Positions 1 to 15,161 are shown, counted from the first letter of the stretch. The stretch: 64,000 nt of DNA from an uncultured Rhodospirillales bacterium (GCA_903927465.1 CAIYMY010000029.1:16275-80274), one strand, 5' to 3'. Made by a program: numbers and translations. Notes: a model not told the origin generated them from the sequence alone.

Positions 1-566
1 AGCTGGTACGCACCCGGCAGGAGGAAATCGCCAAGGAATTGCGCGAATTGCAAGGCCGGATGTTGGAACTGCACGAACGTGAAATCAGCGCCAACGACCA
101 ATTGACCCGCCTCACGATAGACGCGCCCGAAGCCGGTATGGTGATGGATTTGCGCTATACCACACGCGGCGGCGTGATCGCGGCTGGTTCACAGGTTGCC
201 TCCATCGTGCCGCAGGAAGAAAGGCTGGTGGTGGAAGCGCAGATCACGCCGGTTGATGTTGATACGGTACGCCTCGGCATGCCGGCTTCCATCCGGCTTT
301 CCCATGCGGCAGCGCGCACCACGCCTGTTCTGGAAGGTTCAGTGGAACGGATTTCCCCGGACCGCATGACAGATCAACGCACCGGCATGCCGTATTTCGT
401 CGCGCGTATTGCCATTGCGCCTGAGGAATTGGCCAAGCATGAACATTTGCGCCTGCAACCTGGCATGCATGCGGAAGTTCTGATCCGGCGCGGCGAACGG
501 TCCTTTGCCTCCTACCTGGCGCGGCCGCTGTCGGATCGCTTCGCCAAATCCATCCGAGAGTTCTAG
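1..566 (+). CDS. HlyD-family type I secretion membrane fusion protein, 3' part (5' end outside window)
   Basis: Frame is open from nt 3 with no upstream stop. Motifs I.APEAGMV.DL...T.GGVI..G, D.V..G..A.IRL and L.PGM.AEV.I..GERS..SYL.PL are typical of HlyD/PrtE adaptors. Confidence 0.9.
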   Translation, partial: LVRTRQEEIAKELRELQGRMLELHEREISANDQLTRLTIDAPEAGMVMDLRYTTRGGVIAAGSQVASIVPQEERLVVEAQITPVDVDTVRLGMPASIRLSHAAARTTPVLEGSVERISPDRMTDQRTGMPYFVARIAIAPEELAKHEHLRLQPGMHAEVLIRRGERSFASYLARPLSDRFAKSIREF

Positions 567-612
567 AGCAGCAAGCGGCGCGGCAGCGCAGCACAAGTTC
601 AGTAGGAGTGTC

Positions 613-1293
613 ATGATGTTTCGTCGTTTTCTAGGTGCTTTGGCGCTCTGCCTTCTGGGTCTTTCCAGCGCGCCCGCGCTGGCGCAGCAGGGCGATCCCT
701 CTTTCAATGTGGTCAATCGTTCCGGACGGTTGATTTTTGAGGTTTATGCGTCGCTTTCCACGGATCAGGATTGGGGCAGGGATCGGCTTGGCGATAAAGC
801 GCTGCCCAATGAGCGGAGCTTCACGCTACGCCTGCCGCAAGGCCCCTGCATGTGGGATCTGCGCGTGGTTTATGAACGCGCGGGCGGCCCCGCCGAGGAT
901 AAGCGCAACATCAACCTATGTGCTGTGACGGAAGTGGTGTTTGATGGGCGGCAGACGGGCCAAACCCAGGGGCCACAGCAGCGCCCGCAGCCCCAGGCAC
1001 CCCAGCGCGGCGCGCCCGCCGGCCCCACCGGCAATCCTTCCTTCAACCTGGTCAATCAATCGCGCGTGACGGTGATGGAAGCCTATGTATCGCTTTCGAC
1101 CGAGCAGGAATGGGGGCCGGATCGGCTGGGCAATGATACGGTGCCGGCGGGGCGCAATTTCGCCATGCGCCTGCCGGAAGGCCCTTGCCTGCATGATGTG
1201 CGCTTTGTCTATGAGAATGGCCAAGCGGATGAACGCCGCGGCGTGAACCTTTGCGACGTCACTAATCTGGTCCTGCCCTTGCAGCGGCAGTAA
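613..1293 (+). CDS. Secreted hypothetical protein with two tandem ~85-aa Cys-pair domains
   Basis: AGGAG at 604-608 before ATG 613; Sec-type signal peptide ending in ALA-QQ; internal duplication (GDPSFNVVNRS.../GNPSFNLVNQS...) joined by a Q/P-rich linker. Confidence 0.85.
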   Translation: MMFRRFLGALALCLLGLSSAPALAQQGDPSFNVVNRSGRLIFEVYASLSTDQDWGRDRLGDKALPNERSFTLRLPQGPCMWDLRVVYERAGGPAEDKRNINLCAVTEVVFDGRQTGQTQGPQQRPQPQAPQRGAPAGPTGNPSFNLVNQSRVTVMEAYVSLSTEQEWGPDRLGNDTVPAGRNFAMRLPEGPCLHDVRFVYENGQADERRGVNLCDVTNLVLPLQRQ

Positions 1294-1304
1294 AACTGGC
1301 CTGC

Positions 1305-3386
1305 CTAGCTTGGCAGGCTCACATCCAGGTTAAGGGCGGCATCGCAGCGCGCGGTGGCGCCTGGTGGCAGCACCAGCGTGCATTCGCGTTCTTCAATGAG
1401 CGCCGGGCCGGCCACGCTTTCGCCCGGGCGAAGCGCCAAGCGGTTCAGCACTGGCGTTTCAACATAGGCCCCGCCAAACCAGGCACGGCGCGTGCCGCGC
1501 TGCAAAGCACCTTCTGCGGCTCCGCTTTGCTGCGTCAGGTCCACCACCGGGCGTGGGCCAGCTACAATCACCTGCCAGGATACGCATTCCACCGGCAAGC
1601 CGGGTTCGGTGCGTCCGTAAAGCGCCAGATAGGCGGCTTCAAATTTCGCGCGCAATTCTGCCGCATCGCCCTGCGTGATCGCCTCGGCCGGGATTTCCGC
1701 TTCCACCTGGAACCCCTGCCCGGCATAGCGCATGGCACCCAGGATGCGCGCTGATGCAGCTTCCGGCGCCACACCTGCCGCGGCCGCCATAGCTTTGCCT
1801 TGGGCCGTCATGGTGCTGGTGATCTCACGCAGCCGCGCAAAATCCAACCCGGCCAAGGGGGCTACCCAACCCTGCACGAAAGCGAAGGAAATCGGCGCCG
1901 CCAGAAAACCAAAAGCCGAAGCAACCCCCGCGCCCAAAGGCACGATGATGCGGCGAAGGCCAAGTTTCATGCCGATATGGCAGGCATGCACAGGGCCTGC
2001 ACCGCCGATTGGCACCATCGCATAAGCATCAATACGCTTGGCCTTTTCCAACGCGTGGATCGCCGCCGCCTGCGCCATATTGCCATTGACGGTTTCATGG
2101 ATGGCCCAGGCGGCTTCCGGCACAGAAAGACCAAGTGGCTTGCCGATGTGTTCGGCCAAAGCCGCTTCCGCCGCCGCGACATCCAGCTTCATCGCGCCAC
2201 CCAGGAAGCTTTCAGCGCCAAGATAACCCAGCACCAAATCCGCATCCGTGACTGTGGGGCGCGCGCCGCCAAGCCCGTAGCAGGCGGGGCCGGGATCGGA
2301 ACTCGCGCTTTCCGGGCCCACACGCACCAGGCCGAGGCGATCCACCCGCGCGATGGAACCGCCGCCCGCGCCGATTTCGATCATGTCAATGACCGGCACC
2401 TTGAGCGGCAATCCGCTGCCCTTGCGGAAGCGATCCACGCGCGCGACTTCGAAATCGAGGCTGCGCTGAGCTTCGCCATTATCAATCAACGCGGCTTTGG
2501 CGGTGGTACCGCCCATATCAAAGCAAAGGATATCGCGCGCCCCTGCCGCCGCACCATAAATACCAGTGGCTTCCACACCGCCCGCGGGGCCGGATTGCAC
2601 CAAGCGGATCGGGTGACGCGCCGCGGTTTCTTCCGCGACGGTCCCTCCATCAGACAGCATCAGGAAAAGCGGACCGGTTAGGCCGAAGCCGCGCAAGCCA
2701 TCGCTCAAGCGCCGTAGATAGCGTTCAAAGACAGGCTGCACATAGGCGTTGCATACAGTGGTGGAGGCGCGTTCATATTCACCGATTTCCGGCACGATTT
2801 CGGAAGAAAGGCACACGGTCAATTCGGGCGCTTCTTCCGTTAGAATCTCGCGCATGCGCAGTTCATGCGCGGGATTGCGGAAGGCATGCAGGAAACAGAC
2901 AGCAACCGCCTTTGCCCCGGCAGCGCGCAACGCCCGTACCGCTTCGCGCGCGCTGGCTTCATCAAGCGCTTCGCGCACCGTGCCATCAGGCAGCAGGCGT
3001 TCAGCCACCCCAAGCCGGCGATGGCGCGGCACAAGCGGTTCCGGCACACGCATGAACAGATCATAGGTATCGTGGCGGAGTTCGGTGCCGATTTCCAGAA
3101 TATCGCGAAAGCCTTTGGTGGTGATCAGGCCCGTGGGCACGCCGCGGCGTTCGATCAGTGCATTGGCGACCAGCGTGGTGCCGTGAATGACGTGGCGGAC
3201 TTCCTCTGCCCGCGCACCGGTGCGCGCCAGCAAATCGCGCACGCCTTCCAGCACCGCTTCTTCCGGGGCGTGGGGCGTGGTGAGCACCTTGCCATTGAAG
3301 ATGCGCCCGTCACGCGAATCGAGCATGACCAAATCGGTGAAGGTGCCGCCGATATCAACACCAATGCGCCAGGGTGCGGGGTTCAT
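1305..3386 (-). CDS. Hydantoinase A / 5-oxoprolinase family ATP-binding subunit
   Basis: GVDIGGTFTD, HGTTLVANA, SGPAGG, DMGGTTAKA, IGAGGGSIA and PTVTDADLVLG motifs; 693 aa; start overlaps the stop of subunit B (ATGA). Confidence 0.93.
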   Translation of the reverse strand: MNPAPWRIGVDIGGTFTDLVMLDSRDGRIFNGKVLTTPHAPEEAVLEGVRDLLARTGARAEEVRHVIHGTTLVANALIERRGVPTGLITTKGFRDILEIGTELRHDTYDLFMRVPEPLVPRHRRLGVAERLLPDGTVREALDEASAREAVRALRAAGAKAVAVCFLHAFRNPAHELRMREILTEEAPELTVCLSSEIVPEIGEYERASTTVCNAYVQPVFERYLRRLSDGLRGFGLTGPLFLMLSDGGTVAEETAARHPIRLVQSGPAGGVEATGIYGAAAGARDILCFDMGGTTAKAALIDNGEAQRSLDFEVARVDRFRKGSGLPLKVPVIDMIEIGAGGGSIARVDRLGLVRVGPESASSDPGPACYGLGGARPTVTDADLVLGYLGAESFLGGAMKLDVAAAEAALAEHIGKPLGLSVPEAAWAIHETVNGNMAQAAAIHALEKAKRIDAYAMVPIGGAGPVHACHIGMKLGLRRIIVPLGAGVASAFGFLAAPISFAFVQGWVAPLAGLDFARLREITSTMTAQGKAMAAAAGVAPEAASARILGAMRYAGQGFQVEAEIPAEAITQGDAAELRAKFEAAYLALYGRTEPGLPVECVSWQVIVAGPRPVVDLTQQSGAAEGALQRGTRRAWFGGAYVETPVLNRLALRPGESVAGPALIEERECTLVLPPGATARCDAALNLDVSLPS

Positions 3387-4981
3387 GGCGTCACATAGCC
3401 TTCCTTGATATCGCGGGCGATCGCGGCGGGATCACGTTCCGCCACCGGTCCCATGCCGCCGCCGCCTGGTGTTTCATAGGTAATGACATCACCTGGTTGC
3501 AAAACGATCCGCGCCTTGGCGGCGACAGGTTTGCCATTGACCAGATCACGCCCGCCGCGCCCCGCCGCGCCGCCCAAAATACCGCGCGGTGGGTGCTGCA
3601 CGCGTTCATGGCGATACGTAGCCGTCACAGGTTTTTCGCCGACGACTTCAAAGGAAAGCCGTTGAGACAGCCCGCCGCGCATGCGCCCCGCGCCGCCGGA
3701 ATTGGGGATGAGTTCCTTTTCCGTCATCAACATTGGGACAGCGTTTTCAAACTGCTCCACCGCTTGCGTTGCGACATTGGATGGGAAGGAAAGGCAGGCA
3801 GGACCATCATGCTGGGGTGCGGCGCCATGGCCACCATTCATGAAAAACATGCGCACATAACGACGGCCTTCGGCATTCTCGCCAGTGAAATACACATTCC
3901 ATAGCGGGCTGCCGCTTTCCGCGATCACGCGATCTGGAATGAGTTTCGCAAGCGCCGCCAGCACCAGCATGGGCAGATAATGGCCGGTTAGATGCCGCCC
4001 CCACACTGGCGCCGGGCGGCGCGGATTCACAATCGAACCTTCCGGTGCGATGAAGGTGATGGGCCGGAAGGATCCATCATTATTCGGTGTCGCGGGATCG
4101 AAAGCGCATTTCACCGCGTAATTGGAATAGGCGCGCGTGAAATTGAGCGGCGCATTCACCGGGCGCGCAATCTGCCCATCCGTACCGGTAAAATCCAGGA
4201 TCAGATCACTGCCCTTGATGGTCAGTTTCAGGCGAATGGTGACGGGGTGTTCAAAGCCATCGGCGGTGACTTCATCTTCCACCACGCCATCCGGTGCGGC
4301 GGCGATCGCATCGCGCATGGCGCGTTCGGAACGGGTGAAGATTTCGCCGGCCAGCGCATCCAAATCATCAATGCCTTCTTCGGTCATAATGCGCGCCAGG
4401 CGCTTTTCCGCCTGTTCGTAAGCCGCGAATTGCGCGCGGATATCGCCGAGCGTTTCATCCGGCTGGCGCAGATTGGCTTCCATGAAGGCAATCACATCCT
4501 CATTTTCCACGCCACCCTTCAGGATGCGGGTGATGGGAATGGTGAGGCCTTCTTCCCAGGAATCGCGCGCATCCACGGAAGGCGCGCCGCCGATATCGGT
4601 GGAATGGAAGGTGCTGCCTAGCCATGAAATCACGCGGCCCTTGGCGAAGACGGGCTTGATCATCGTGATGTCATTCAAATGGCCGGTGCCGTAATAGCCA
4701 TCATTCGAAATCAACACATCGCCAGGTGAAAGCCGTTCCACCGGGTAGCGTTGCAGCATGATTGCCAGCGTACGCGGCATGGTGCCCACAAAGGATGGGA
4801 CAGAACGTGATGATTGCGCGAATTGCCGCCCGCTGCTGTCCATCAGCCCAATCGCCATATCCCAATTGTCGCGCACAACAGATGAGAAGGAGGTGCGGAC
4901 AAAACTCTGCGCCGTTTCATCCATGAGCCCCGCAATGCGCTGCCAGGCAGTGCCAAGCCGAAGGGCAGAAAAGCTGGACAT
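3383..4981 (-). CDS. Hydantoinase B / oxoprolinase family subunit
   Basis: SFSSVVRDNWD, GHLNDIT, HSTDIGG, GGHGA, GRMRGGL and TPGGGGMG motifs; AGGAGA RBS supports ATG 4981. Confidence 0.92.
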   Translation of the reverse strand: MSSFSALRLGTAWQRIAGLMDETAQSFVRTSFSSVVRDNWDMAIGLMDSSGRQFAQSSRSVPSFVGTMPRTLAIMLQRYPVERLSPGDVLISNDGYYGTGHLNDITMIKPVFAKGRVISWLGSTFHSTDIGGAPSVDARDSWEEGLTIPITRILKGGVENEDVIAFMEANLRQPDETLGDIRAQFAAYEQAEKRLARIMTEEGIDDLDALAGEIFTRSERAMRDAIAAAPDGVVEDEVTADGFEHPVTIRLKLTIKGSDLILDFTGTDGQIARPVNAPLNFTRAYSNYAVKCAFDPATPNNDGSFRPITFIAPEGSIVNPRRPAPVWGRHLTGHYLPMLVLAALAKLIPDRVIAESGSPLWNVYFTGENAEGRRYVRMFFMNGGHGAAPQHDGPACLSFPSNVATQAVEQFENAVPMLMTEKELIPNSGGAGRMRGGLSQRLSFEVVGEKPVTATYRHERVQHPPRGILGGAAGRGGRDLVNGKPVAAKARIVLQPGDVITYETPGGGGMGPVAERDPAAIARDIKEGYVTP

Positions 4982-4994
4982 AGCGTATTCTCCT

Positions 4995-6593
4995 TTAGCC
5001 GCGCATGGCTTGTAGCTGCGCGGCATAGCCGGCGGGGTTCACCGTTACATCAATCAGGCTTGGGCCTTGCAGCGCAAAAGCGGCTTCAAGGGCGGTGATG
5101 TATTCGGCTTCGGTCGTGGCGCGGAAGCCCGTGGCGCCAAAGCCTTCTGCGATGGCGGCGAAATCCGGCCGTGCCCAGCGCACACCCTCGGGCGGCAACT
5201 GCCGCTGCTGCTGCTTGATATCAATCAGCGACAGCGCGCCATCATTAAAGACGATGGTGATGCAGGGCGCGCCGGCCTCCGCCGCCGTTGCGAGTTCTGC
5301 CACGCACATCATCAACCCGCCATCGCCGGTAAAAGCAATGGCGCCATCAGCAGGGTTTTCCAGTGCGGCAGCAAGCGCGGCTGGGAGCGCAAAGCCCATC
5401 GAGGCGAGGCCGTTGGAAATCAACACATCGCGCGGCGCCGCGCATTCCCAGAAAGCGGTGGCCGAGAACATATGCGCCCCCGCATCAACGCTGATGCGTG
5501 GGGTGCGCCCAGCGCGGCGCGCGGCTTCCTGCGCCAAACTCACAATAAGCGGCGGTGCGACACCGCCTGAGCCCTGCCAAGTCAAAGCCGCGCGCATGGT
5601 ATCCCGATGTGTCGCAATCACCGCGCCATCCCACGCACTGCGTTTGGCGCTGTGCGCCAGCGCGGTAAAGCACGGCGCCAACGCGCCATGCAGTGATGCG
5701 GTGGGCGTGACGTAATGCACGTGATGTGCGCGCAAGCCGATATCCAGGACTGGCGCCGTATAGCGCCAAGGTTGCAGGATGAGTTCCACCGGATCGAGGC
5801 CCGCCAGGATGATCAAATCCGCATCCTGCACGCAGGGTGCTTCCAAAGATCCGCCGGTGAAAATGCCGACGAAATGCGGATCAGCATCCGCGATCACGCC
5901 CTTGGCTTTATAGGTTACCAGCGCCGGGCAGCCGAGCGCCGCCACCAAAGCGCGCAGTGGTTCGGCTGCCGTTACGGCTTCCACACCCGCCAGGATCACG
6001 GGCTTGCGCGCCGCAGCCAATACTGCACGCGCTTTAGCCAAGGCTGCGTTATCAAGTGGCGTGGGTATGCTTGCCGGCAAAGGCGGTAATTCGCCCGCCG
6101 GGCGGCGCGCAGCTTCGCTGGTTAAATCCAGATGCACCGGGCCGATCGGCGCTTGCATGGCAAGGTCAAGCAGGGCTTCGATCTCGGCCGCCGGGTTTTC
6201 GCTGCGCGCTTGGGAATAACCCTTCACCAATTCGGCGCTCACGTTCCGCTGATCAAACACCTGATGGGTGATGTAGCTGATTTGCTTTTCGGTGAAGCCA
6301 TCGGTCAGCAGCAACACCGGCGCGCGTTCCAACGCGGCACAAGCAATCCCATTCAGCGCATTCATCAACCCCGGGCCCTTGGTGGTCAGCACCACACCGG
6401 GTGCGCCGGTCACTTCCGCATCCGCCACCGCCATCATCGCCGCATTGCCTTCATGACGCGCCAGGATGAAGCGAATGCCAAAACGCTCGGCTGCTGCGAT
6501 GATATCCAGCGAAGAACCACCCCCCGGCACGCCATAGATGCGCCTGGTGCCGCGCCGCGCGAGCGCTGCCAGCAAATACTCAGCGGTGTTCAT
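4995..6593 (-). CDS. Thiamine diphosphate-dependent enzyme (acetolactate synthase-like superfamily)
   Basis: YGVPGG, RHE catalytic Glu, GPGLMN, SNGLASMGFALPAA, and the GDG...ND ThDP/Mg motif; ATG 6593 overlaps the upstream stop (ATGA). Confidence 0.9.
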   Translation of the reverse strand: MNTAEYLLAALARRGTRRIYGVPGGGSSLDIIAAAERFGIRFILARHEGNAAMMAVADAEVTGAPGVVLTTKGPGLMNALNGIACAALERAPVLLLTDGFTEKQISYITHQVFDQRNVSAELVKGYSQARSENPAAEIEALLDLAMQAPIGPVHLDLTSEAARRPAGELPPLPASIPTPLDNAALAKARAVLAAARKPVILAGVEAVTAAEPLRALVAALGCPALVTYKAKGVIADADPHFVGIFTGGSLEAPCVQDADLIILAGLDPVELILQPWRYTAPVLDIGLRAHHVHYVTPTASLHGALAPCFTALAHSAKRSAWDGAVIATHRDTMRAALTWQGSGGVAPPLIVSLAQEAARRAGRTPRISVDAGAHMFSATAFWECAAPRDVLISNGLASMGFALPAALAAALENPADGAIAFTGDGGLMMCVAELATAAEAGAPCITIVFNDGALSLIDIKQQQRQLPPEGVRWARPDFAAIAEGFGATGFRATTEAEYITALEAAFALQGPSLIDVTVNPAGYAAQLQAMRG

Positions 6594-8278
6594 GCGCGTG
6601 CCCGATCCGGCCAGAAGCGCACACCGGCCCGCGCGAGCCCGCCGCCAAGGCCAATCGCCGTACCATCCGCGCGCCAGCACGCCGCCCCTTCCATGCTGCC
6701 ATCGGCCTGGAAGGTGATGGCATTCATGCCGCCGCCAACATGCGGCATGGGCGCAACCTGATGCCCGCGAGCCTTGAGCGCTTCAAGCACCGCGGCATCA
6801 AAGTCGGGTTCAACTTCCACCGCAGCGCCTTGAGTCCAAAGCCGCGGCGCTTCCACCGCTTCCTGCAGCGACATGCCGTGATCCACCAGATTGAGCAAAC
6901 CCTGCATGACCGAACCGAAAATCCGCAAACCGCCCGGCATGCCAAGCGCATAAGCGGGCTTGCCATCCTTCAGCGCAATCAGCGGCGCCTGGGATGTGGT
7001 GATGCGCTTGCCGGGCGCGACAGACAAAGCCTTGCCGGGGCGCGGATCGAACAGCGCCATATAGTTGTTCGGGATCAGCCCCGTGCCCGGCACCAGGAAG
7101 CGCGCGCCAAACAGTGAATTGATGGTCTGCGTTGAGCAAACAATATTGCCCTGATCATCCGCCACCGTGACATGGGTGGTATTGGCGCTCTCGCCGGGGC
7201 TGACCCCCGGCCCCCAGGTTTGCGCGCGCGCCATATCAACTGCGGCGCGGCGTTCATCGCCATAGGCGCGCGAAATCAGCCGCGCCACGGGTACATCCAC
7301 AAAGGTAGGATCAGCAGTGGCGGCGGCACGATCAGCGAAGGCAATCTTCAACGCCTCGGCCAGCAGATGCAGCGTATCGGCGCTGCCGAAACCCATCCCG
7401 TGCAGATCGAAGCCTTCCAATATGTTCAGCATTTGCAGCACATGCACGCCGGAAGACGCCGGGGGCGGTGGCAGCAAAACCTCATAACCACGATAGGGGC
7501 CACGCAAAGGCGCGCGTTCAATCGTCGTGAAATCTGCAATATCGGCGGCGGAGACAATGCCGCCCGCCTTCCTGATGCCATCAGCAATCGCGCTGCCCAA
7601 GGCGCCCTTCAGCACGCCAGGCCCTTCGCGCGCGATCAGCGCGAGGGTTTCAGCATATTCCGCCTGGATCAGCCGCGCACCTGGCTTGATCGGCGCGCCA
7701 CCTGGCAATAATAGCGCGGCAATGGCGGGGTCGCGCGCCAGATCATGCGCTGCTTCATTGATGCATTCGGCCAGATAGGGCGTGACGCCAAAACCGCGCG
7801 CCGCGTGGCGTATCGCCGGCGCCATCACATCAGAAAGCGGCATGCTGCCGAAGCGTTCCAGCGTTTCGCACCAGGCGCGCAAATTGCCCGGCACGGCGAC
7901 AGAAAGCGGGCCGACGATATTGGCGCGGCCCGTCGCTTCAAAATTCATCGCATTGGCGGGCGCAGCGGGCGTGAACATATCGGCGCGCGCCGCAGCCGGC
8001 GCGGTGGACAGCCCATCAATCACGGTGTGCCGCCCATCTGGCAAGCGCAGATGCGCCATGCCGCCACCCAGAATGCCCACCATCATGGGTTCCACCACGG
8101 TCAGCGTGAACAGCGCGGCGATGGCGCCATCCACCGCATTGCCACCGGCAGCGAGCATTTCCGCCCCAGCGGCGGAGGCGAGCGGATGGTTCGTCACCAC
8201 CATGCCGCGCGTGCCCGTGGCGGGGCGTTTTTCCGTGGTAAAATGCGTGCCAGCGCGCGACCGCCAATTATCTTGCAT
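6590..8278 (-). CDS. Gamma-glutamyltransferase-fold Ntn-hydrolase (cytoplasmic, atypical substrate pocket)
   Basis: GGNAVDGAIA, N-TTH autocleavage site and PGG oxyanion motif; no signal peptide; alternative start at 8293. Confidence 0.88.
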   Translation of the reverse strand: MQDNWRSRAGTHFTTEKRPATGTRGMVVTNHPLASAAGAEMLAAGGNAVDGAIAALFTLTVVEPMMVGILGGGMAHLRLPDGRHTVIDGLSTAPAAARADMFTPAAPANAMNFEATGRANIVGPLSVAVPGNLRAWCETLERFGSMPLSDVMAPAIRHAARGFGVTPYLAECINEAAHDLARDPAIAALLLPGGAPIKPGARLIQAEYAETLALIAREGPGVLKGALGSAIADGIRKAGGIVSAADIADFTTIERAPLRGPYRGYEVLLPPPPASSGVHVLQMLNILEGFDLHGMGFGSADTLHLLAEALKIAFADRAAATADPTFVDVPVARLISRAYGDERRAAVDMARAQTWGPGVSPGESANTTHVTVADDQGNIVCSTQTINSLFGARFLVPGTGLIPNNYMALFDPRPGKALSVAPGKRITTSQAPLIALKDGKPAYALGMPGGLRIFGSVMQGLLNLVDHGMSLQEAVEAPRLWTQGAAVEVEPDFDAAVLEALKARGHQVAPMPHVGGGMNAITFQADGSMEGAACWRADGTAIGLGGGLARAGVRFWPDRARA

Positions 8279-8289
8279 AGGTATTTCCT

Positions 8290-9498
8290 TCATTGCCGAA
8301 CACGCATCATGAAAAGTGCCGCAACTGCCGCAACGCCAAGCAGCGCGGTCAGCCATAGTGAAGCCGCGCCAAAATCATCCAGTAGCAGCCCAAACAACAA
8401 GGGCGCAAAAGCCTGCGAAGCCCGCGCCGGCGCGGTGATGAAGCCCTGGCGCTGCCCATAGCCAACCGGCCCGAATAGCGCGAGCGGCAACGTGCCGCGC
8501 GTGATGGTCAGCAACCCATTCCCCGCGCCATGGATAATCACAAAAAGCGCGGCAAAGGGCGCGCCCAGCGCCATCAGTACCACCACCGCCACCGGATGCG
8601 CACCAGCGGCAATGCGTGCGGAAAAAAGCGGATTCATCTTGCGCATGAGTGTAAATTCAACAACGCGCGCCGCCACCTGCGCCGGGCCCATCAACGCGCC
8701 AGCTGCAATCGCGACGGCGAGGGATGTGCCTGCGGATTGCAGTAGCCCCGGCAAATGCGCGGCAAGCGCGGTAGAACTAAAACTCGCGGTCGCCAGCACG
8801 AAAGCGAGCAGGATCATGTCGCGTTTGCAGTCCCGCGTTTCCTCGGCAGATAGCGGTGGCGCGGCTTCCTTGGGTGGTGGTGGGGGTGCCTTCGGGATCA
8901 GAATAAGATTGAGCGGCAGGCAGATGAAGAGATGCAAGGCCACCCAGCCGAGGCAGGCGCCGCGCCAGCCCCATTCGGCTTCCATCAGCGCGGAAAGCGG
9001 CCAGCCGACCGTGCTCGCAAAACCCGCAATCAGCGTAATGCCGGTGATGCTGTTGCGCGCATCCTTGCCGTAAAGCCCGGCAAGCGTCGCGAAGGCCGCA
9101 TCATAAAGCCCCATCGCCATGGCAATGCCAATGATGAACCAGCTTAGGATCAGCATCGGCAGACCATTGGCAAAGGCCATGATCAGCAGGCCAAGAATGA
9201 AAATCATGTTCGAAATGGCCAGCACATCGCGCCCACCGCGCTGGTCAATCGCGCGGCCCGCCGCTGGCCCCAGCAGCGCGGTCAGCAGCAGGGAGCCGGA
9301 AAACACGCCAAAGACCAGGGCGCGCGACAGGCCCAGATCCTCGGCGATTGGTGCAGCCAGGATAGCCGGCAGATAATAGGAAGACGCCCAGGCCAGGGTC
9401 TGGGTGGTGCCAAGCACTGTCACCACCCTGGCCTTGGAAGCGGTCGCGCTCACGGAAAAAAGCCGGGTTGCGATTTCAATCCGTGATGGCGCGGCCAC
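8290..9498 (-). CDS. MFS transporter
   Basis: About 12 hydrophobic segments; GRAIDQRGGR motif A; GTG start (exact start uncertain). Confidence 0.88.
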   Translation of the reverse strand: MAAPSRIEIATRLFSVSATASKARVVTVLGTTQTLAWASSYYLPAILAAPIAEDLGLSRALVFGVFSGSLLLTALLGPAAGRAIDQRGGRDVLAISNMIFILGLLIMAFANGLPMLILSWFIIGIAMAMGLYDAAFATLAGLYGKDARNSITGITLIAGFASTVGWPLSALMEAEWGWRGACLGWVALHLFICLPLNLILIPKAPPPPPKEAAPPLSAEETRDCKRDMILLAFVLATASFSSTALAAHLPGLLQSAGTSLAVAIAAGALMGPAQVAARVVEFTLMRKMNPLFSARIAAGAHPVAVVVLMALGAPFAALFVIIHGAGNGLLTITRGTLPLALFGPVGYGQRQGFITAPARASQAFAPLLFGLLLDDFGAASLWLTALLGVAAVAALFMMRVRQ

Positions 9499-10555
9499 GC
9501 GCTGCGGCGTAGCGTTCCGCGAAGCGGCCCTTCACTTCCGGGTTGATGATGCGTGGCGGCATTTTGGCGGCGGCACAGGCAGAAAAGGCTTCCGCCGCAA
9601 TGCGTGTGATCATGGACCGACTTTCATGCGTGACCCCCGCGGTGTGCTGCGTGCAGATCACGGCCGGGTGCCACAATAGCGGGTGTTCCTTGGGCGGCGG
9701 TTCCTGTTCCCAAACATCCAAACCGGCTGAGGCCAATTGTCCCGATTCCAGCGCCACCAGCACAGCGTTTTCATCATGGATGGAACCGCGCGCGGTGGTG
9801 ACCAGAATGGCGCCCTTTTTCATGCCGGCCAGCGCCTTGGCATCAATAATGGCGCGGCTTTGTGGCGTAAGCGGGCAATGCACGCTGACGATATCGGATT
9901 GCGCCAGCAATTCGGCCAATTCCACTTTTTCCGCCCCGCGCTTGGCCACCGTTTCGGCATCCACATAAGGGTCATAAGCCAGCACGCGGCAATTGAAGGC
10001 GGCCTTCACAATGGCGGTGGTGCGTGAACCCACATTGCCAATGCCAATCACGCCAACCGTCTTGTCGAGCAGATTATTGCCCATAAATACTTCGCGGCGC
10101 TTGGCTTCCCCGGCGCGCATGGCGGCATGGGTCTGCGGCATTTTCTTGATCAACGCCAGCATCATGCCAACGGCGTGTTCCGCCACGGCTTCGGCATTAC
10201 CGCCGGCCTGGTTCACCAAAAGCACGCCGGCCTTGGTGCAGGAATCCGGGTTGATCGTGTCATATCCCGCACCCTGGGATGCGACCATCAGCAGATTGGG
10301 CAGGCGCTGCAATAGCGCATCATTCACGTGAAACGCCTTGGGCAATTCATCGCGTGAGGCACGGACATAATAGCCATCACAGGTGGCCAGTTCCGCAAGT
10401 GCTGCTTCTTCCCCATTTTCCAGGGAAAGGCGGACCACTTCCAGGGCCGGATCGGCGGTGGCGGTTTCCAGAAAGCTTGGATGCGGCACGCGTTCCAGAT
10501 AGGCGACGCGGAATGGCTTATTGACTGCGGACAAGATTATTTCCCCCTTGCTCAA
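9476..10555 (-). CDS. D-isomer-specific 2-hydroxyacid dehydrogenase (SerA-like, no ACT domain)
   Basis: GAGYD, GIGNVG Rossmann motif, YDPY, TARG, DVWEQEP and QHTAG catalytic Arg/Glu/His; TTG start. Confidence 0.9.
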   Translation of the reverse strand: MSKGEIILSAVNKPFRVAYLERVPHPSFLETATADPALEVVRLSLENGEEAALAELATCDGYYVRASRDELPKAFHVNDALLQRLPNLLMVASQGAGYDTINPDSCTKAGVLLVNQAGGNAEAVAEHAVGMMLALIKKMPQTHAAMRAGEAKRREVFMGNNLLDKTVGVIGIGNVGSRTTAIVKAAFNCRVLAYDPYVDAETVAKRGAEKVELAELLAQSDIVSVHCPLTPQSRAIIDAKALAGMKKGAILVTTARGSIHDENAVLVALESGQLASAGLDVWEQEPPPKEHPLLWHPAVICTQHTAGVTHESRSMITRIAAEAFSACAAAKMPPRIINPEVKGRFAERYAAARGRAITD

Positions 10556-10601
10556 GGCCGGGGATGCTAGACTTGGTTTTGCCGGGGCGCCAGACCGGGG
10601 C

Positions 10602-10919
10602 CTAGCGCCTAACCGTCAACAGATGAGCCACAATATCATCCAGCTCCTCCCGGCTTAGCCGGTAATCCGGCATATTCGCATGCGGTGTGCGCAAATAGGC
10701 GCGCAGCGACATGGAAGTTGTGGAAGGCAGCGCGGCAATGGCGGCGAAGCTTGGCGCGATATCCGTGGCCGGTCCCGGGCCGCCAGGCGCGATGCGGTGG
10801 CAATTGGCGCACCAGGTGGCGGCCAGGCGCTGTCCGGCAATCGGGTCCCCGGGTTCCATCTGCGCCAGCGCCACGCCGGGCAGCGCTGCCAGCACGCATG
10901 TGATCAGCCAATGGCGCAT
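10602..10919 (-). CDS. Small class I c-type cytochrome
   Basis: Signal peptide, CANCH heme motif, distal MP (HANMPDY); AGGAGG RBS. Confidence 0.85.
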   Translation of the reverse strand: MRHWLITCVLAALPGVALAQMEPGDPIAGQRLAATWCANCHRIAPGGPGPATDIAPSFAAIAALPSTTSMSLRAYLRTPHANMPDYRLSREELDDIVAHLLTVRR

Positions 10920-10955
10920 TTTGATCCTCCTGCTTCGGGGGAGCCCGGCCTTGCC

Positions 10956-11705
10956 TCAGGCGAGGTAATTGCCCCCGTTGATGTGATAAACCTGACCCGT
11001 GATCCAGGCGGCTTGATCAGACGCAAGATAGGCCATCAATCCGGCGATTTCTTCGGGCCGCCCCATCCGCCCCAGCGGGATTTGCTGGGCCATGACCGCA
11101 AGCTCCGCTTCACTATTGCCGTAGCGCGGCTGCGCGGTATCGGTCAGGCCCGGTGCGATGGCGTTCACGCGAATGCCCTTGGAAGCAAGCGACAGGGCCA
11201 TGGACCGTGTCATGCCGATAATGCCGGCCTTGGTCGCCGTGTAATGCACCCCAAGCGGTGCCCCCCGGACGGAGGAGGAAGAAAGGTTGATGATCACCCC
11301 CTTGATCCCCGCCGCCACCATGGCGCGCGCCGCCGCCTGGGCGCAAAAGGCGCTGCCCTTCAGGTTCACGGCAATCACTCGGTCCCATTCCGCTTCGGTC
11401 ATTTCCAAAAATTCAACGCGGGGGAAGATGCCGGCATTATTGACCAGCACATCAATGCGCCCGAGTGCGGCGATGGTCTGTTCCACCAGGGCGGCAGCGC
11501 CGGCGGCAGTGCCGACATCGCCCCGGATCAGCGCGGCTTTGCGGCCTGAAGCGCGAATATCGGCTGCCAGGGCTTCGGCTTGGGCCTGGTTATCCAGCCA
11601 GTTGATCGCGACATCATGGCCCGCTGCCGCCAGGGCGCGCGCGGCCGCGGCCCCGATGCCCTGCTGCGCGCCGGTTACCAGCGCCACCCGTGTTTCGTCT
11701 GCCAT
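10956..11705 (-). CDS. Classical SDR oxidoreductase (FabG-like)
   Basis: TGAQQGIG, NNAG, YTATK and VNAIAPG motifs. Confidence 0.9.
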   Translation of the reverse strand: MADETRVALVTGAQQGIGAAAARALAAAGHDVAINWLDNQAQAEALAADIRASGRKAALIRGDVGTAAGAAALVEQTIAALGRIDVLVNNAGIFPRVEFLEMTEAEWDRVIAVNLKGSAFCAQAAARAMVAAGIKGVIINLSSSSVRGAPLGVHYTATKAGIIGMTRSMALSLASKGIRVNAIAPGLTDTAQPRYGNSEAELAVMAQQIPLGRMGRPEEIAGLMAYLASDQAAWITGQVYHINGGNYLA

Positions 11706-11818
11706 GGTCCGAACCCCCTGAAATCAGCGGAAGCCTAGTGCCAAATGCGCCCCCTGTCTTGAGGGCTTGCCCCGGCGCCCGCCCGGTGGCACCCCTTGTC
11801 AGAGAGGGAGGCGGCGCA

Positions 11819-12586
11819 GTGGATATTGCTGGAATGTTCTCGTTGCAGGGGCGCGTGGCGCTGGTGACTGGTGCGTCTGGCGTTTTGGGCGCGCATTTCG
11901 CGCGGGTTCTGCATGGCGCGGGTGCCTCAGTGGCCTTGGCCGCGCGGCGCGAAGCCGCGACAGCAGCGCTGGCCAGCGAATTGGGTGCGCGCGCGGTTTC
12001 TGTGCCTTTGGATGTGACCGCGCCGGAGACCATCCCATTGGCCTTTGCCGCCGCGGAAGCCGCCTTCGGCGCGCCATGCGATATTCTGGTCAATAATGCC
12101 GGCATCGCCGTGACCAAGCCCGCTTTGCAACAAAGCGCTGAGGATTGGGATTCGGTGCTGGATGTAAATTTGCGCGGCTGTTTTCTGGTGGCGCAGGAAG
12201 CCGCCAAGCGCCTGGTGGCGGCGAAGCGCCCGGGCGTGGTGGTGAATATCGCCTCCGTCCTTGGGGAGCGCATCATTCCGGGTGTGGTCGGCTATACCGC
12301 CGCCAAGGCCGGGCTTTTGCACATGACGCGCCATTTGGCGGTGGAATGGGCGCGGCATGGCATTCGGGTGAATGCGATTGCGCCGGGCTATATCGCCACT
12401 GATATCAACCGTGATTACTTCGCCTCCGATTCCGGGCAGGCGATGATCAAACGCATCCCGCAACGCCGGCTTGGCGCTGCCGAGGACCTTACCGGGCCGC
12501 TTTTGCTGCTCGCTTCCGATGCCGGGGCGCATATGACCGGCGCGGTGGTGACAGTGGATGGCGGCCATTCGATCAACCCGCTTTAG
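11819..12586 (+). CDS. SDR oxidoreductase, LvaD-like (putative 4-oxoacyl-CoA reductase)
   Basis: TGASGVLG, NNAG and YTAAK motifs; GAGGGAGG RBS before GTG 11819 (alternative ATG 11834). The LvaD assignment comes from operon context. Confidence 0.85.
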   Translation: MDIAGMFSLQGRVALVTGASGVLGAHFARVLHGAGASVALAARREAATAALASELGARAVSVPLDVTAPETIPLAFAAAEAAFGAPCDILVNNAGIAVTKPALQQSAEDWDSVLDVNLRGCFLVAQEAAKRLVAAKRPGVVVNIASVLGERIIPGVVGYTAAKAGLLHMTRHLAVEWARHGIRVNAIAPGYIATDINRDYFASDSGQAMIKRIPQRRLGAAEDLTGPLLLLASDAGAHMTGAVVTVDGGHSINPL

Positions 12587-12597
12587 GTTTTGCCGCC

Positions 12598-13809
12598 ATG
12601 GAATTCACGCTGCCCCCCGAAATTGATGATATGCGCCGGCGCATTCGTCGCTTTGTTGATGAAAAGCTGATTCCTCTGGAATCCAACCGCGCGAATTTCG
12701 ATGAGCATGAAAACATCGCGCCCCATGTGCTGGCGGAAATGCGCAAGGCCGCAAAGGCGGAAGGGCTTTGGGCTTTGCAAATGCCAAAGCGCCTGGGTGG
12801 CCAGGAATTGCCGCGCATTGGCATGGCCGCTTGTTATGAGGAAATGAATCGCTCCATCTTCGGGCCAGTGGTGTTCAATAGCGCAGCGCCGGATGACGGC
12901 AATATGATGATCCTGGATCGCGTTTTGCCGGAAGCGATGAAGCCGCGCTGGTTGCAGCCGATTGTGAATGGCGAAGTGCAATCCGCCTTCGCCATGACCG
13001 AACCGGATGGCTGCGGTTCTGACCCGAACCTGACCTATACCAAGGCGGAACGCGTCGGCAATGATCGCTGGCGCATCACCGGGCGCAAATGGTTCATCAC
13101 CGGCGCCGGCAATGCGAAGATTTTCATTATTCTGGCGCGTACATCGGATGATCCCCGCAAGGGGCTTTCCGCCTTCCTGTTCAGCGCCGATCAGCCGGGC
13201 TGGAAGATCGTACGCCGCATTCCGATCATGGGGCCGGAAGAACATGGCGGGCATTGCGAATTGGAATTCGACGGGCTGGAAGTCCCGAATGAACACCTTT
13301 TGATGAATGAAGGCGATGGGCTGAAGCTGACGCAAATGCGCCTGGGTGTGGCGCGGTTGACGCATTGCATGCGCTGGCTGGGATTGTCTCGACGTGCTTT
13401 GGAAATTGCCATGGAACGCATCGCGCAACGCGATTCCTTCGGCATGAAGCTGATTGACCGCGAAAGCGTGCAGGGCCTGGTGGGCCAGGCGGCGATGGAA
13501 ATCGAGATTGGCCGGCTGCTGACCATGAAGGCGGCCTGGATTCTGGACCAAGGCGGCTTCGCGCGGAAGGAAGTTTCCATGGCGAAGATTGTGGTCGCGG
13601 ATGCTTTGCAAAAATCCGTGGATACGGCGCTGCAATTGCTGGGCGCGCGCGGCTATTCCAAGGATACGGTGATTGAATGGATGTACCGCTATGCTCGCCA
13701 GGCACGCCTGGTGGATGGCGCATCCGAAGTACATCGCATGGTGTTGGCCAATACATTGCGGGCGGAGGGCTCTTCCTTCTTCGCCTGGGGTCCGCCCAAG
13801 CATGGATGA
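12598..13809 (+). CDS. Acyl-CoA dehydrogenase, LvaC/ACAD10-11-like
   Basis: FAMTEP..GSDP, GRKWFITGA, RLTHCMRWLG, and VDGASEVH with Asp at the position of the usual catalytic Glu. Confidence 0.9.
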   Translation: MEFTLPPEIDDMRRRIRRFVDEKLIPLESNRANFDEHENIAPHVLAEMRKAAKAEGLWALQMPKRLGGQELPRIGMAACYEEMNRSIFGPVVFNSAAPDDGNMMILDRVLPEAMKPRWLQPIVNGEVQSAFAMTEPDGCGSDPNLTYTKAERVGNDRWRITGRKWFITGAGNAKIFIILARTSDDPRKGLSAFLFSADQPGWKIVRRIPIMGPEEHGGHCELEFDGLEVPNEHLLMNEGDGLKLTQMRLGVARLTHCMRWLGLSRRALEIAMERIAQRDSFGMKLIDRESVQGLVGQAAMEIEIGRLLTMKAAWILDQGGFARKEVSMAKIVVADALQKSVDTALQLLGARGYSKDTVIEWMYRYARQARLVDGASEVHRMVLANTLRAEGSSFFAWGPPKHG

Positions 13810-15158: not shown

Positions 15159-15161
15159 CGC

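What the first reader, a model, noticed from the sequence alone, without database searches (positions are those of the whole stretch)
1305..10555. Six-gene operon that looks like an undescribed amide/lactam catabolic pathway
Seen: tightly coupled minus-strand genes (two ATGA overlaps, one 23-nt overlap, other gaps under 15 nt) in the order 2-hydroxyacid dehydrogenase, MFS, GGT-fold hydrolase, ThDP enzyme, hydantoinase B, hydantoinase A. Established: HyuA/HyuB-type pairs open cyclic amides using ATP, Ntn-hydrolases cleave amides, and ThDP enzymes and D-2-hydroxyacid dehydrogenases act on 2-oxo acids. Inference: import of an N-heterocycle or acyl-amide, ring opening, amide cleavage and 2-oxo-acid processing. 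I do not recognise this combination as a named pathway.
Basis: partly seen in the sequence, partly recalled or inferred. Interest (0 to 1): 0.72.

Follow-up and report, generated by a model that had tools for sequence, protein, structure and literature searches.

The report
Composite operon around a lactamase–ThDP trio
The six tightly packed genes are real, but they are a genus-specific joining of three separately inherited gene blocks; only the ThDP enzyme plus the two-subunit ATP-dependent ring-opening amidase travel together in many other bacteria, as an uncharacterised catabolic module.

Summary
Six minus-strand genes (2-hydroxyacid DH, MFS, GGT-like, ThDP enzyme, HyuB, HyuA) lie at 1305-10555. 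There are two ATGA overlaps, all junctions are 23 nt or less, and a terminator-like hairpin sits at the HyuA stop. A cytochrome c and an SDR gene lie just upstream on the same strand.

The single-pathway reading is only partly supported. All six genes are syntenic only in about 25 species-level freshwater Roseomonas-like MAGs. In 27 of 28 other Acetobacteraceae the ThDP-HyuB-HyuA trio is kept without DH, MFS or GGT. In most of the Burkholderiales-type loci the trio is kept too, rearranged. Its recurrent partners there are a BCAT-like aminotransferase, an aldehyde dehydrogenase, an RraA-like protein and TctC binding proteins.

SDR-cyt c-DH-MFS…GGT is an older Acetobacteraceae backbone. In sister genera a five-gene cassette separates MFS from GGT, and the trio lies megabases away. 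GGT orthologues in 76 other metagenome loci never neighbour ThDP or HyuAB.

The GGT-like protein keeps its catalytic Thr and oxyanion glycines. It has lost three γ-glutamyl-binding residues (EcGGT R114→L, Q430→Y, D433→L) and has no signal peptide, so simple glutathione recycling is unlikely.

Best reading: a composite operon whose core is an undescribed ATP-dependent lactamase plus ThDP module. The substrate is unknown.

The parts
10956..11705 (-). SDR oxidoreductase; probable first gene of the co-directional array and part of the ancestral backbone
   Evidence: Pfam adh_short and adh_short_C2. 77% identical and syntenic in Roseomonas sp. JC162, locus L087. A 36-nt gap with AGGAGG precedes the next gene.
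10602..10919 (-). Small secreted cytochrome c (105 aa, CANCH haem motif); part of the backbone
   Evidence: Pfam Cytochrom_C. 72% identical and in the same position in L087. Also present in the clade member L099.
9476..10555 (-). D-isomer-specific 2-hydroxyacid dehydrogenase, PGDH/glyoxylate-reductase-like. The likely true start is the TTG at 10534, giving 352 aa.
   Evidence: Pfam 2-Hacid_dh and 2-Hacid_dh_C. Best NCBIfam match is PGDH at 240 bits, below the 454 cutoff. Orthologues of 74-76% identity lie directly upstream of the MFS in L084 and L087. A GGGGGA motif lies 7 nt before the TTG at 10534.
8290..9498 (-). MFS transporter of undetermined direction. The start is either the GTG at 9498 or the GTG at 9453.
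   Evidence: Pfam MFS_1. Nearest curated family is the ArsK efflux transporter at 246 bits, below the 400 cutoff. Orthologues of 69-72% identity follow the DH in L084 and L087 and are also present in L081.
6590..8278 (-). Cytoplasmic GGT-fold Ntn amidohydrolase with a non-canonical acyl pocket (562 aa)
   Evidence: PF01019, and TIGR00066 at 406.7 against a 357.85 cutoff. It keeps N366|T367 (nucleophile), T385, N387 and G449-G450. L90, Y406 and L409 replace EcGGT R114, Q430 and D433, and there is no signal peptide. Y406 is invariant in nine orthologues of 69-76% identity; in their consensus the R114-equivalent position is Met (Leu in the window) and the D433-equivalent is Leu.
4995..6593 (-). 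ThDP-dependent enzyme related to acetolactate synthase (532 aa), with no assigned function; conserved partner of HyuB/HyuA
   Evidence: Pfam TPP_enzyme_N, M and C. Best NCBIfam match is PRK08322 at 280 bits, below the 509 cutoff. Best PDB matches are catabolic acetolactate synthases at about 1e-52. E48 and the G423DG…N450D motif are present. It is adjacent to HyuB/HyuA in 27 of 28 other Acetobacteraceae loci and in about 17 of 27 mostly Burkholderiales loci.
3383..4981 (-). HyuB: hydrolytic, metal-binding subunit of an ATP-dependent lactamase/hydantoinase-family enzyme
   Evidence: PF02538. PDB matches: N-methylhydantoinase at 204 bits and CapB at 144 bits. [quoted passage not shown] AAGGAG lies before the ATG at 4981.
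1305..3386 (-). HyuA: ATP-binding (actin-like ATPase) subunit
   Evidence: Pfam Hydant_A_N, Hydantoinase_A and Hydant_A_C. PDB matches: N-methylhydantoinase at 404 bits and CapA at 349 bits. ATP motifs D11IGGTFTD, D290MGGT and D364PGP are present.
1299..1318 (-). Terminator-like hairpin plus T-run at the 3' end of the array
   Evidence: Seven-pair stem with 6 G-C pairs, followed by CAGTTTTAC, overlapping the HyuA stop codon.

Best explanation
The array is a lineage-specific composite transcription unit built from three blocks with separate evolutionary histories.

(1) An ancestral Acetobacteraceae backbone, SDR-cytochrome c-DH-MFS.

(2) The backbone's GGT-like gene. It encodes a cytoplasmic Ntn amidohydrolase that keeps its catalytic machinery but has lost the residues that recognise the γ-glutamyl α-amino and α-carboxyl groups. 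It is therefore an acylase or amidase for some other acyl group.

(3) A ThDP-HyuB-HyuA trio that was moved directly behind GGT in the ancestor of this freshwater clade.

Only block (3) is a widely conserved functional unit. Its inferred mechanism is as follows. HyuA uses ATP to activate a cyclic amide (lactam or hydantoin type), probably as the phosphorylated iminol. HyuB hydrolyses the activated ring at its metal site. The ThDP enzyme then decarboxylates or cleaves a 2-oxo acid that is the ring-opened product or is derived from it.

In Burkholderiales the same module sits with a BCAT-like aminotransferase, an aldehyde dehydrogenase, an RraA-like protein and TctC binding proteins. That set suggests the route: carboxylated lactam → amino acid → 2-oxo acid → aldehyde → acid.

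Shown here: the gene families, motif integrity, synteny and co-occurrence. Inferred: the reaction order and the substrate class. The substrate is unknown. Whether GGT, DH and MFS feed the trio in this clade is not shown.
For: Synteny of the six-gene set:
- tblastn of the six proteins against 80 species-representative loci finds all six genes in order only in the clade with 87-95% ThDP identity (L001-L025).
- In 27 of 28 other Acetobacteraceae loci ThDP-HyuB-HyuA is kept in the same order with gaps of about 10-30 nt. DH, MFS and GGT are present in 0 of 28.
- In the third group of loci (ThDP 50-57% identical, mostly Burkholderiales) HyuB/HyuA lie within 4 kb of ThDP in about 17 of 27. The order and sometimes the strand differ, which argues for functional linkage rather than inherited order.

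Recurrent partners of the trio:
- BCAT-like class IV aminotransferase in 16 of 28 Acetobacteraceae loci and 15 of 27 loci in the third group.
- Also aldehyde dehydrogenase, RraA-like protein, TctC, and in some loci an AS amidase.

Backbone:
- Roseomonas sp. JC162 (L087) has SDR, SDR, cyt c, DH (74%), MFS (72%), then five genes, most of them on the opposite strand (Aspzincin twice, Crp, TPR-S, TIR_2), then GGT (75%).
- The same layout is seen in GCA_036704275 (L084). Its trio lies about 4.1 Mb away on the same contig (L085).
- Of 80 metagenome loci with GGT orthologues, only the 4 from the focal clade have ThDP or HyuAB.

Enzyme integrity:
- HyuA has its ATP motifs and HyuB its Asp-His-Asp-His site.
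- The ThDP enzyme has its catalytic Glu and the GDG…ND motif.
- HyuA and HyuB resemble N-methylhydantoinase and caprolactamase far more than they resemble carboxylases.

GGT pocket: R114→L, Q430→Y, D433→L. The EcGGT R114L mutant is inactive and D433N confers glutaryl-7-ACA acylase activity (PMC8062742).
Against: - Within the clade the GGT/ThDP junction is an ATGA overlap, and the arrangement is stable across about 25 species-level genomes. That pattern would also fit a selected functional fusion.
- A GGT orthologue and a ThDP orthologue (54% identity) lie 1.3 kb apart in Stella humosa.
- GGT orthologues sit next to a 2-Hacid_dh paralogue in another lineage. Some functional links between the blocks therefore cannot be excluded.
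- There is no direct biochemical or genetic evidence for any step.
- RNA evidence is thin.
- Gene calling in the comparison loci was home-made, using a codon-usage model.
Confidence: 0.6

Rival explanations
1. All six gene products (or eight, counting SDR and cyt c) form one dedicated pathway in this clade. A transporter takes up an N-heterocycle or acyl-amide, HyuAB opens the ring, the GGT-like enzyme cleaves an amide, and the ThDP enzyme and the DH process the resulting 2-oxo or 2-hydroxy acid.
For: - Tight translational coupling, including the ATGA overlap at the GGT/ThDP junction.
- The arrangement is conserved in every sufficiently long locus of the clade.
- The GGT-like pocket is not γ-glutamyl-specific, so another amide substrate is plausible.
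- GGT lies near a ThDP orthologue in Stella humosa and next to a DH paralogue in another lineage.
- In this clade the trio lacks its usual aminotransferase partner, and the DH could supply the 2-oxo acid instead.
Against: - There is no co-occurrence outside one genus-level clade.
- In sister genera DH-MFS and GGT are separated by an opposite-strand cassette, and the trio is unlinked.
- Within a single genus, synteny is expected from common descent alone.
- The nearest curated relative of the MFS is an exporter.
Confidence: 0.2
2. The trio, with its partners elsewhere, is a 5-oxoproline-type route. HyuAB acts as a 5-oxoprolinase (L- or D-). The resulting glutamate is transaminated to 2-oxoglutarate. 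The ALS-like ThDP enzyme acts as a 2-oxoglutarate decarboxylase, and the aldehyde dehydrogenase oxidises succinate semialdehyde. This would be analogous to the cyanobacterial OGDC/SSADH bypass (from my own knowledge: Zhang & Bryant 2011).
For: - HyuA and HyuB belong to the oxoprolinase/hydantoinase/lactamase family.
- An aldehyde dehydrogenase lies 27-48 nt from ThDP in Variovorax and Limnohabitans, together with a BCAT-like aminotransferase that would use the Glu/2-oxoglutarate pair.
- A D-Glu_cyclase (PF07286) gene lies beside the cluster in Variovorax (L054, L055) and in L052.
- TctC binding proteins suggest uptake of a carboxylate.
Against: - No equivalog-level match supports an oxoprolinase, a 2-oxoglutarate decarboxylase or an SSADH. 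The best match of the aldehyde dehydrogenase is betaine-aldehyde-DH-like, and SSADH models score lower.
- Glutamate and 2-oxoglutarate already enter central metabolism, so a dedicated bypass has no obvious need.
- The aminotransferase is BCAT-like rather than a D-amino-acid aminotransferase.
Confidence: 0.12
3. Ordinary γ-glutamyl cycle housekeeping. GGT degrades glutathione or γ-glutamyl peptides, and HyuAB, acting as a 5-oxoprolinase, recycles 5-oxoproline. The other genes are incidental.
For: - The GGT-like protein passes the TIGR00066 cutoff.
- The HyuAB family includes 5-oxoprolinases.
Against: - The GGT-like protein lacks R114, Q430 and D433 and has no signal peptide. The EcGGT R114L mutant is inactive.
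- GGT and HyuAB are unlinked in all other lineages sampled.
- HyuAB is linked to the ThDP enzyme, which has no role in this cycle.
Confidence: 0.05
4. HyuAB is a ketone carboxylase of the acetone/acetophenone-carboxylase type that acts on a ketone or acyloin made by the ThDP enzyme.
For: Carboxylases belong to the same superfamily. ALS-like ThDP enzymes make acyloins.
Against: - HyuB is 532 aa and matches the acetone carboxylase α subunit (776 aa) only over residues 17-212, at 44 bits.
- No gene for a small γ subunit is present in the array.
- NCBIfam carboxylase models score far below their cutoffs.
- The best matches are hydrolases.
Confidence: 0.03

Closest known systems
Caprolactamase CapAB of Pseudomonas jessenii (PDB 6YRA) and the ATP-dependent lactamase/hydantoinase/5-oxoprolinase family, including N-methylhydantoinase (PDB 7HK5)
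   Same: Two-subunit architecture. ATP motifs are conserved in the A subunit and the Asp-His-Asp-His metal site in the B subunit. Full-length similarity: HyuA scores 404 bits to N-methylhydantoinase and 349 bits to CapA; HyuB scores 204 and 144 bits (motifs from PMC8453981).
   Different: Scores are far below the CapA/CapB equivalog cutoffs (491 and 178 against 1000). The substrate is unknown. Here the pair is consistently linked to a ThDP enzyme. From my own knowledge and what I read of the caprolactam papers (PMC6061476 abstract; PMC8453981), the caprolactam and creatinine pathways use a class III aminotransferase and a carbamoylsarcosine amidase respectively, not a ThDP enzyme.
Catabolic acetolactate synthase (AlsS) and related ALS-like ThDP enzymes; functional analogues are 5-guanidino-2-oxopentanoate decarboxylase AruI and cyanobacterial 2-oxoglutarate decarboxylase (the last two from my own knowledge)
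   Same: Three-domain ThDP fold, catalytic Glu and GDG…ND motif. The best PDB and NCBIfam matches are ALS-type enzymes. In Burkholderiales its neighbours are an aminotransferase and an aldehyde dehydrogenase, as in the arginine transaminase route.
   Different: It falls below every curated cutoff (280 against 509 for PRK08322, 198 against 500 for AruI-like PRK07524). There is no small regulatory subunit and no budA or ilv context. Its partner is HyuAB.
Bacterial γ-glutamyltranspeptidase (E. coli Ggt, Bacillus GGT) and GGT-derived or class IV glutaryl-7-ACA acylases
   Same: Full-length GGT fold (about 320 bits to the E. coli and B. licheniformis enzymes). The autoprocessing and nucleophile Thr, T409, N411, S463 and the oxyanion Gly-Gly are conserved.
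   Different: R114→L, Q430→Y, D433→L and S462→T. It has no lid loop and no signal peptide. Engineered changes at these positions shift GGT towards acylase activity on acyl groups lacking the α-amino group (PMC8062742). It is much less similar to the oxamate amidohydrolase entry 5HFT (86 bits). That 5HFT is HpxW is from my memory.

Membership tests
Canonical γ-glutamyltranspeptidase / glutathione hydrolase | GGT (PF01019) fold, scoring above the TIGR00066 cutoff | tested here: met
   PF01019 at 439.8 bits. TIGR00066 at 406.7 bits against a 357.85 cutoff.
Canonical γ-glutamyltranspeptidase / glutathione hydrolase | Catalytic and autoprocessing Thr (EcGGT T391), T409, and the oxyanion-hole residues G483-G484 | tested here: met
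   T367 (in NTTH), T385 and G449-G450 align with these residues.
Canonical γ-glutamyltranspeptidase / glutathione hydrolase | Residues that bind the γ-glutamyl α-carboxylate and α-amino groups (EcGGT R114, Q430, D433) | tested here: not met
   The window protein has L90, Y406 and L409 at these positions. Y406 is invariant in nine orthologues. In their consensus the R114-equivalent position is Met (Leu in the window) and the D433-equivalent is Leu. The EcGGT R114L mutant has no detectable activity (PMC8062742).
Canonical γ-glutamyltranspeptidase / glutathione hydrolase | Secretion signal, giving periplasmic or extracellular location | tested here: not met
   The N-terminus is MQDNWRSRAGTHFTTEKRPATGTRGMVV…, with no hydrophobic signal segment. 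This was judged by eye; no predictor was run.
ATP-dependent lactamase/hydantoinase/oxoprolinase family (HyuA/HyuB) | A subunit with the Hydantoinase_A domains and the ATP motifs DxGGTxTD, DxGGT and PGP | tested here: met
   Pfam match. Motifs D11IGGTFTD18, D290MGGT294 and D364PGP367 are present.
ATP-dependent lactamase/hydantoinase/oxoprolinase family (HyuA/HyuB) | B subunit with the Hydantoinase_B domain and the Asp-His-Asp-His metal site | tested here: met
   PF02538 at 467.8 bits. D41, H101, D104 and H126 align with the CapB residues.
ATP-dependent lactamase/hydantoinase/oxoprolinase family (HyuA/HyuB) | ATP-dependent hydrolysis of a cyclic amide | not testable with these tools
   This needs an enzyme assay.
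Caprolactamase CapA/CapB (NCBIfam equivalogs NF050156 and NF050157) | Score above the equivalog cutoff | tested here: not met
   491 and 178 bits against cutoffs of 1000.
Acetone/acetophenone carboxylase | Long α subunit (about 700-780 aa), an additional small γ subunit, and equivalog-level similarity | tested here: not met
   HyuB is 532 aa and matches the acetone carboxylase α subunit only partially, at 44 bits. No gene for a small third subunit is present. Apc models score 98-308 bits against cutoffs of 1250-1500.
Acetolactate synthase (AlsS or IlvB types) | Three ThDP domains with the catalytic Glu and the GDG…N(D/N) motif | tested here: met
   Pfam match. E48 and G423DG…N450D451 are present.
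Acetolactate synthase (AlsS or IlvB types) | Equivalog-level score and an als or ilv gene context | tested here: not met
   PRK08322 at 280 against 509, AlsS at 247 against 510, TIGR00118 at 195 against 538. Its neighbours are HyuB/HyuA, not budA, ilvN or ilvC.
   0 of 55 ThDP-anchored loci outside the clade and 0 of 76 GGT-anchored loci outside the clade have the full set.
   Short metatranscriptome contigs hit DH, MFS, GGT and ThDP (run X21). Junction-spanning contigs come only from a run that may contain DNA (X23).

The most novel reading that the evidence does not exclude
In this freshwater Roseomonas-like genus, placing the ThDP-HyuB-HyuA trio behind the backbone GGT-like gene (and, relative to the sister genera, loss or absence of the five-gene cassette) created a genuinely new 6-8-gene pathway. 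In it, a GGT-fold acylase with a hydrophobic, non-γ-glutamyl pocket, an ATP-dependent lactamase, a ThDP enzyme and a D-2-hydroxyacid dehydrogenase act together on one as yet unidentified N-containing lake-water compound.
Probability: 0.15. Interest if true: 0.65.

Novelty: new variant of a known kind. Interest (0 to 1): 0.4.

Why it matters
The ThDP-HyuB-HyuA trio is conserved in Acetobacteraceae and Burkholderiales, including abundant freshwater genera such as Limnohabitans and the Roseomonas-like lake clade. The motif scan found 498 ThDP relatives among species-representative genomes, of which I examined the neighbourhoods of the best 80. I found no published function for the module.

ATP-dependent lactamases are few, and they are of biotechnological interest for hydrolysing nylon monomers and lactams. 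A member with an obligate ThDP partner points to an unrecognised route for a cyclic amide, possibly a common compound of dissolved organic nitrogen.

The GGT-like family found here shows that automatic 'gamma-glutamyltransferase' annotations cover enzymes that probably cannot bind γ-glutamyl substrates.

The case is also a caution on method. Tight operon packing within one genus does not show that the genes form one pathway.

Tried and rejected
- Naive longest-ORF calling and GC3-based gene calling in the comparison loci picked antisense ORFs. GC3 is only about 0.68 in this organism. I replaced them with a codon-usage log-odds caller trained on the tblastn-located genes.
- Three full-text literature searches for a HyuAB plus ThDP or acetolactate-synthase cluster found nothing relevant.
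- The sigma-70 promoter scan found no sites. This says little for an alphaproteobacterium.
- RNA evidence was weak. Only three candidate RNA runs hold 5-7% of the sampled words. One true metatranscriptome gives short contigs inside DH, MFS, GGT and ThDP. The junction-spanning contigs come from runs labelled 'METAGENOMIC RNA-Seq', and one such contig also spans the divergent promoter region, so they may be DNA.
- I tried to use the 'Lys40' criterion of the caprolactamase paper to separate oxoprolinases from lactamases. I could not map the residue numbering with confidence, so I dropped it.
- I considered HpxW-type oxamate amidohydrolase for the GGT-like gene. The protein is far closer to canonical GGTs (320 against 86 bits), and the ThDP enzyme is closer to ALS than to oxalyl-CoA decarboxylase (182 against 106 bits). 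I rejected the oxamate/oxalate idea as the leading model.
- I did not use structure prediction, the representative-protein search or the third homologue search, because they would not identify the substrate.

Full report
**Observation.** ORF listing and translation show six co-directional minus-strand genes between 1305 and 10555. Pfam and NCBIfam assign them as follows:
- HyuA, 1305-3386.
- HyuB, 3383-4981.
- A three-domain ThDP enzyme, 4995-6593.
- A GGT-fold protein, 6590-8278.
- An MFS_1 transporter, 8290-9453 or 9498.
- A D-2-hydroxyacid dehydrogenase, 9476-10534 or 10555.

Among the five enzymes only the GGT-like protein reaches a curated equivalog cutoff (TIGR00066, 406.7 against 357.85). 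The others score well below every named model:
- CapA 491 and CapB 178, against cutoffs of 1000.
- The best ALS-type model 280, against 509.
- PGDH 240, against 454.

**Junctions.** I read the junctions directly. GGT/ThDP and HyuB/HyuA are ATGA overlaps. ThDP/HyuB has a 13-nt gap with AAGGAG, and MFS/GGT an 11-nt gap with AAGGAA. DH/MFS is either a 23-nt overlap or a 22-nt gap, depending on which GTG is the start. A terminator-like hairpin followed by a T-run overlaps the HyuA stop codon. Upstream on the same strand lie a cytochrome c gene (10602-10919) and an SDR gene (10956-11705), with gaps of 46-67 nt and 36 nt. The transcription unit may therefore hold eight genes.

**Source organism.** The closest ThDP and GGT homologues (87-96% identity) come from lake-water Roseomonas-like Acetobacteraceae MAGs. 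The DNA itself is found in lake metagenomes.

**Is the six-gene set conserved?** I scanned one genome per species with an alignment of ThDP orthologues. The scan found 498 relatives, and I kept the best 80 loci with 10-kb flanks. tblastn with the six proteins separates three groups.
- In the 25 loci of the close clade (ThDP 87-95%), all six genes are present in the same order wherever the contig reaches. Three clade-derived metagenome contigs repeat this. L099 also shows the SDR and cyt c genes upstream, and a fourth, shorter contig carries the GGT-ThDP junction.
- In 28 other Acetobacteraceae loci (ThDP 62-71%; Falsiroseomonas, Neoroseomonas, Roseomonas, Humitalea), 27 keep ThDP-HyuB-HyuA in that order. 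None has DH, MFS or GGT within 10 kb.
- In the other 27 loci (ThDP 50-57%; mostly Burkholderiales such as Variovorax, Limnohabitans, Zwartia and Alcaligenaceae), HyuB/HyuA lie within 4 kb of ThDP in about 17. The order is different (HyuB-HyuA-[ALDH]-ThDP) or the genes are divergent.

Linkage that survives rearrangement across two proteobacterial classes is the usual signature of a functional unit. Linkage confined to one genus is not.

**Partners of the trio elsewhere.** I called genes in these loci with a codon-usage model, clustered them and annotated the clusters. The recurrent neighbours are:
- A class IV, BCAT-like aminotransferase, present in 16 of 28 and 15 of 27 loci. It scores just under the IlvE cutoffs.
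- An aldehyde dehydrogenase 27-48 nt from ThDP in Variovorax and Limnohabitans.
- An RraA-like aldolase/decarboxylase-family protein.
- TctC binding proteins.
- In a subset of Acetobacteraceae, an AS-family amidase with a peptide/opine-type ABC system.
- In Variovorax (L054, L055) and L052, a D-Glu_cyclase-family gene.

Variovorax carries a co-directional run: HyuB-HyuA-ALDH-ThDP-TctC-BCAT-like.

**Origin of DH, MFS and GGT.** GGT orthologues of 70-77% identity are widespread in Acetobacteraceae and also occur in Stella and Ferrovibrio. Their contexts show the following.
- In Roseomonas sp. JC162 the order is SDR, SDR, cyt c, DH (74%), MFS (72%), then a five-gene cassette with most genes on the opposite strand (two Aspzincin, Crp, TPR-S, TIR_2), then GGT (75%).
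- The layout is the same in GCA_036704275. There the trio lies about 4.1 Mb away on the same contig.
- Neoroseomonas lacus is similar.

The window's right-hand genes therefore belong to an ancestral backbone, and the trio was placed behind GGT in the ancestor of the lake clade. All six proteins differ from their sister-genus orthologues by similar amounts (62-83% identity). That fits an internal rearrangement better than recent import.

A metagenome scan anchored on a Stella-first GGT alignment gave 80 loci. Only the four clade-derived loci carry ThDP or HyuAB. In a large soil lineage the GGT neighbours are housekeeping-type genes such as mutM and thiF.

Two observations keep a partial link open. 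In Stella humosa a GGT orthologue and a 54%-identical ThDP orthologue lie 1.3 kb apart. In another lineage the order is LysR-GGT-2-Hacid_dh (37-41% identical)-GGT paralogue.

**The enzymes.**
- HyuA has the ATP motifs defined for the caprolactamase family, and HyuB has the Asp-His-Asp-His metal tetrad (PMC8453981). Both resemble N-methylhydantoinase and caprolactamase far more than they resemble the carboxylases. There is no third subunit gene. The pair is therefore best read as an ATP-dependent cyclic-amide hydrolase.
- The ThDP enzyme has its catalytic Glu and the GDG…ND motif, and is nearest to catabolic acetolactate synthases.
- The GGT-like protein aligns full-length with E. coli and B. 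licheniformis GGT. It retains the nucleophile Thr, T409, N411, S463 and the oxyanion Gly-Gly. It has Leu, Tyr and Leu in place of EcGGT R114, Q430 and D433, and lacks the lid loop and a signal peptide. Tyr at the Q430 position is invariant in the orthologues. The R114-equivalent position is Leu or Met and the D433-equivalent is Leu in their consensus. According to a review of GGT mutagenesis (PMC8062742), the R114L mutant of EcGGT has no detectable activity, and changes at D433 and its neighbours create glutaryl-7-ACA acylase activity. The protein is therefore probably an intracellular amidase or acylase for a substrate other than a γ-glutamyl compound.
- The nearest curated relative of the MFS is the ArsK exporter, and it scores below that cutoff. 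The direction of transport is open.

**Expression.** One lake metatranscriptome has short contigs within DH, MFS, GGT and ThDP. Contigs that span the HyuA/HyuB, HyuB/ThDP and MFS/DH junctions come only from runs of uncertain RNA status. Co-transcription is plausible from the sequence but is not demonstrated.

**Conclusion.** The most likely reading (about 0.6) is a composite, clade-specific operon. Its conserved functional core is an uncharacterised ThDP plus ATP-dependent lactamase module. By inference, that module opens a cyclic amide and then decarboxylates or cleaves a derived 2-oxo acid. In other bacteria an aminotransferase and an aldehyde dehydrogenase complete the route.

A specific 5-oxoproline → 2-oxoglutarate → succinate-semialdehyde version of the trio pathway is an attractive sub-hypothesis without direct support (about 0.12). 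Plain γ-glutamyl-cycle recycling and a carboxylase role are unlikely.

I found no paper describing the HyuAB-ThDP module. I rate it a new variant of a known kind, of moderate interest.

Noticed in passing
window 11690-20166 (+ strand): The unit transcribed divergently from the array encodes an SDR, an acyl-CoA dehydrogenase, an APH-family phosphotransferase, a small DUF6285 protein, an AMP-binding ligase, a family III CoA-transferase and two more acyl-CoA dehydrogenases. From memory, the first five match the lvaD/C/A/B/E gene set for levulinate and 4-hydroxyacid catabolism via a 4-phosphoacyl-CoA. The SDR and the first acyl-CoA dehydrogenase are syntenic in Roseomonas sp. JC162.
   Followed up: partly
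L081 3011-7984, L084 2283-7987, L087 4384-9983: In sister genera a five- or six-gene cassette sits between the MFS and GGT genes: one or two Aspzincin_M35 peptidases, a Crp-family regulator, a TPR-S protein, a TIR_2-domain protein and an 82-97-aa ORF. The TIR_2 gene and the small ORF are co-directional with GGT and tightly spaced. The cassette is absent from the window's clade.
   Followed up: no
L083 (Stella humosa) 6581-15648: The order is ALDH-GGT orthologue (70%), then DUF3297, a ParE toxin-antitoxin pair and a cupin, then a ThDP orthologue (54%), GNAT, an AMP-binding ligase and a PEP-mutase/ICL-family gene. A Gly_transporter-family gene follows. PEP_mutase-family and Gly_transporter-family genes also recur near ThDP orthologues in Burkholderiales loci.
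   Followed up: partly
L133 and L152, about 8965-14372: A separate lineage has a LysR regulator followed by a GGT orthologue, a 2-Hacid_dh paralogue (37% identical to the window's DH) and a second, more divergent GGT paralogue, all co-directional.
   Followed up: partly
L085 11598-17341 (GCA_036704275): In this assembly the HyuB, HyuA and neighbouring amidase genes are each called as two or three fragments. This could be frameshift errors in a long-read assembly or pseudogenisation.
   Followed up: no
window 505-1293 (+) and 3-566 (+): Convergent with the array are a gene for a clade-specific protein with no Pfam match (226-262 aa; the orthologue inspected has a hydrophobic N-terminus and an internal duplication, by eye) and the end of an HlyD-family membrane-fusion gene.
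   Followed up: no
window 16776-18002, 35895-38324, 52799-53947: Several ORFs elsewhere in the window have N-termini resembling family III CoA-transferases. Only 16776-18002 was checked with Pfam; the others were judged by eye from the translations. This suggests a region rich in CoA-dependent organic-acid catabolism.
   Followed up: no
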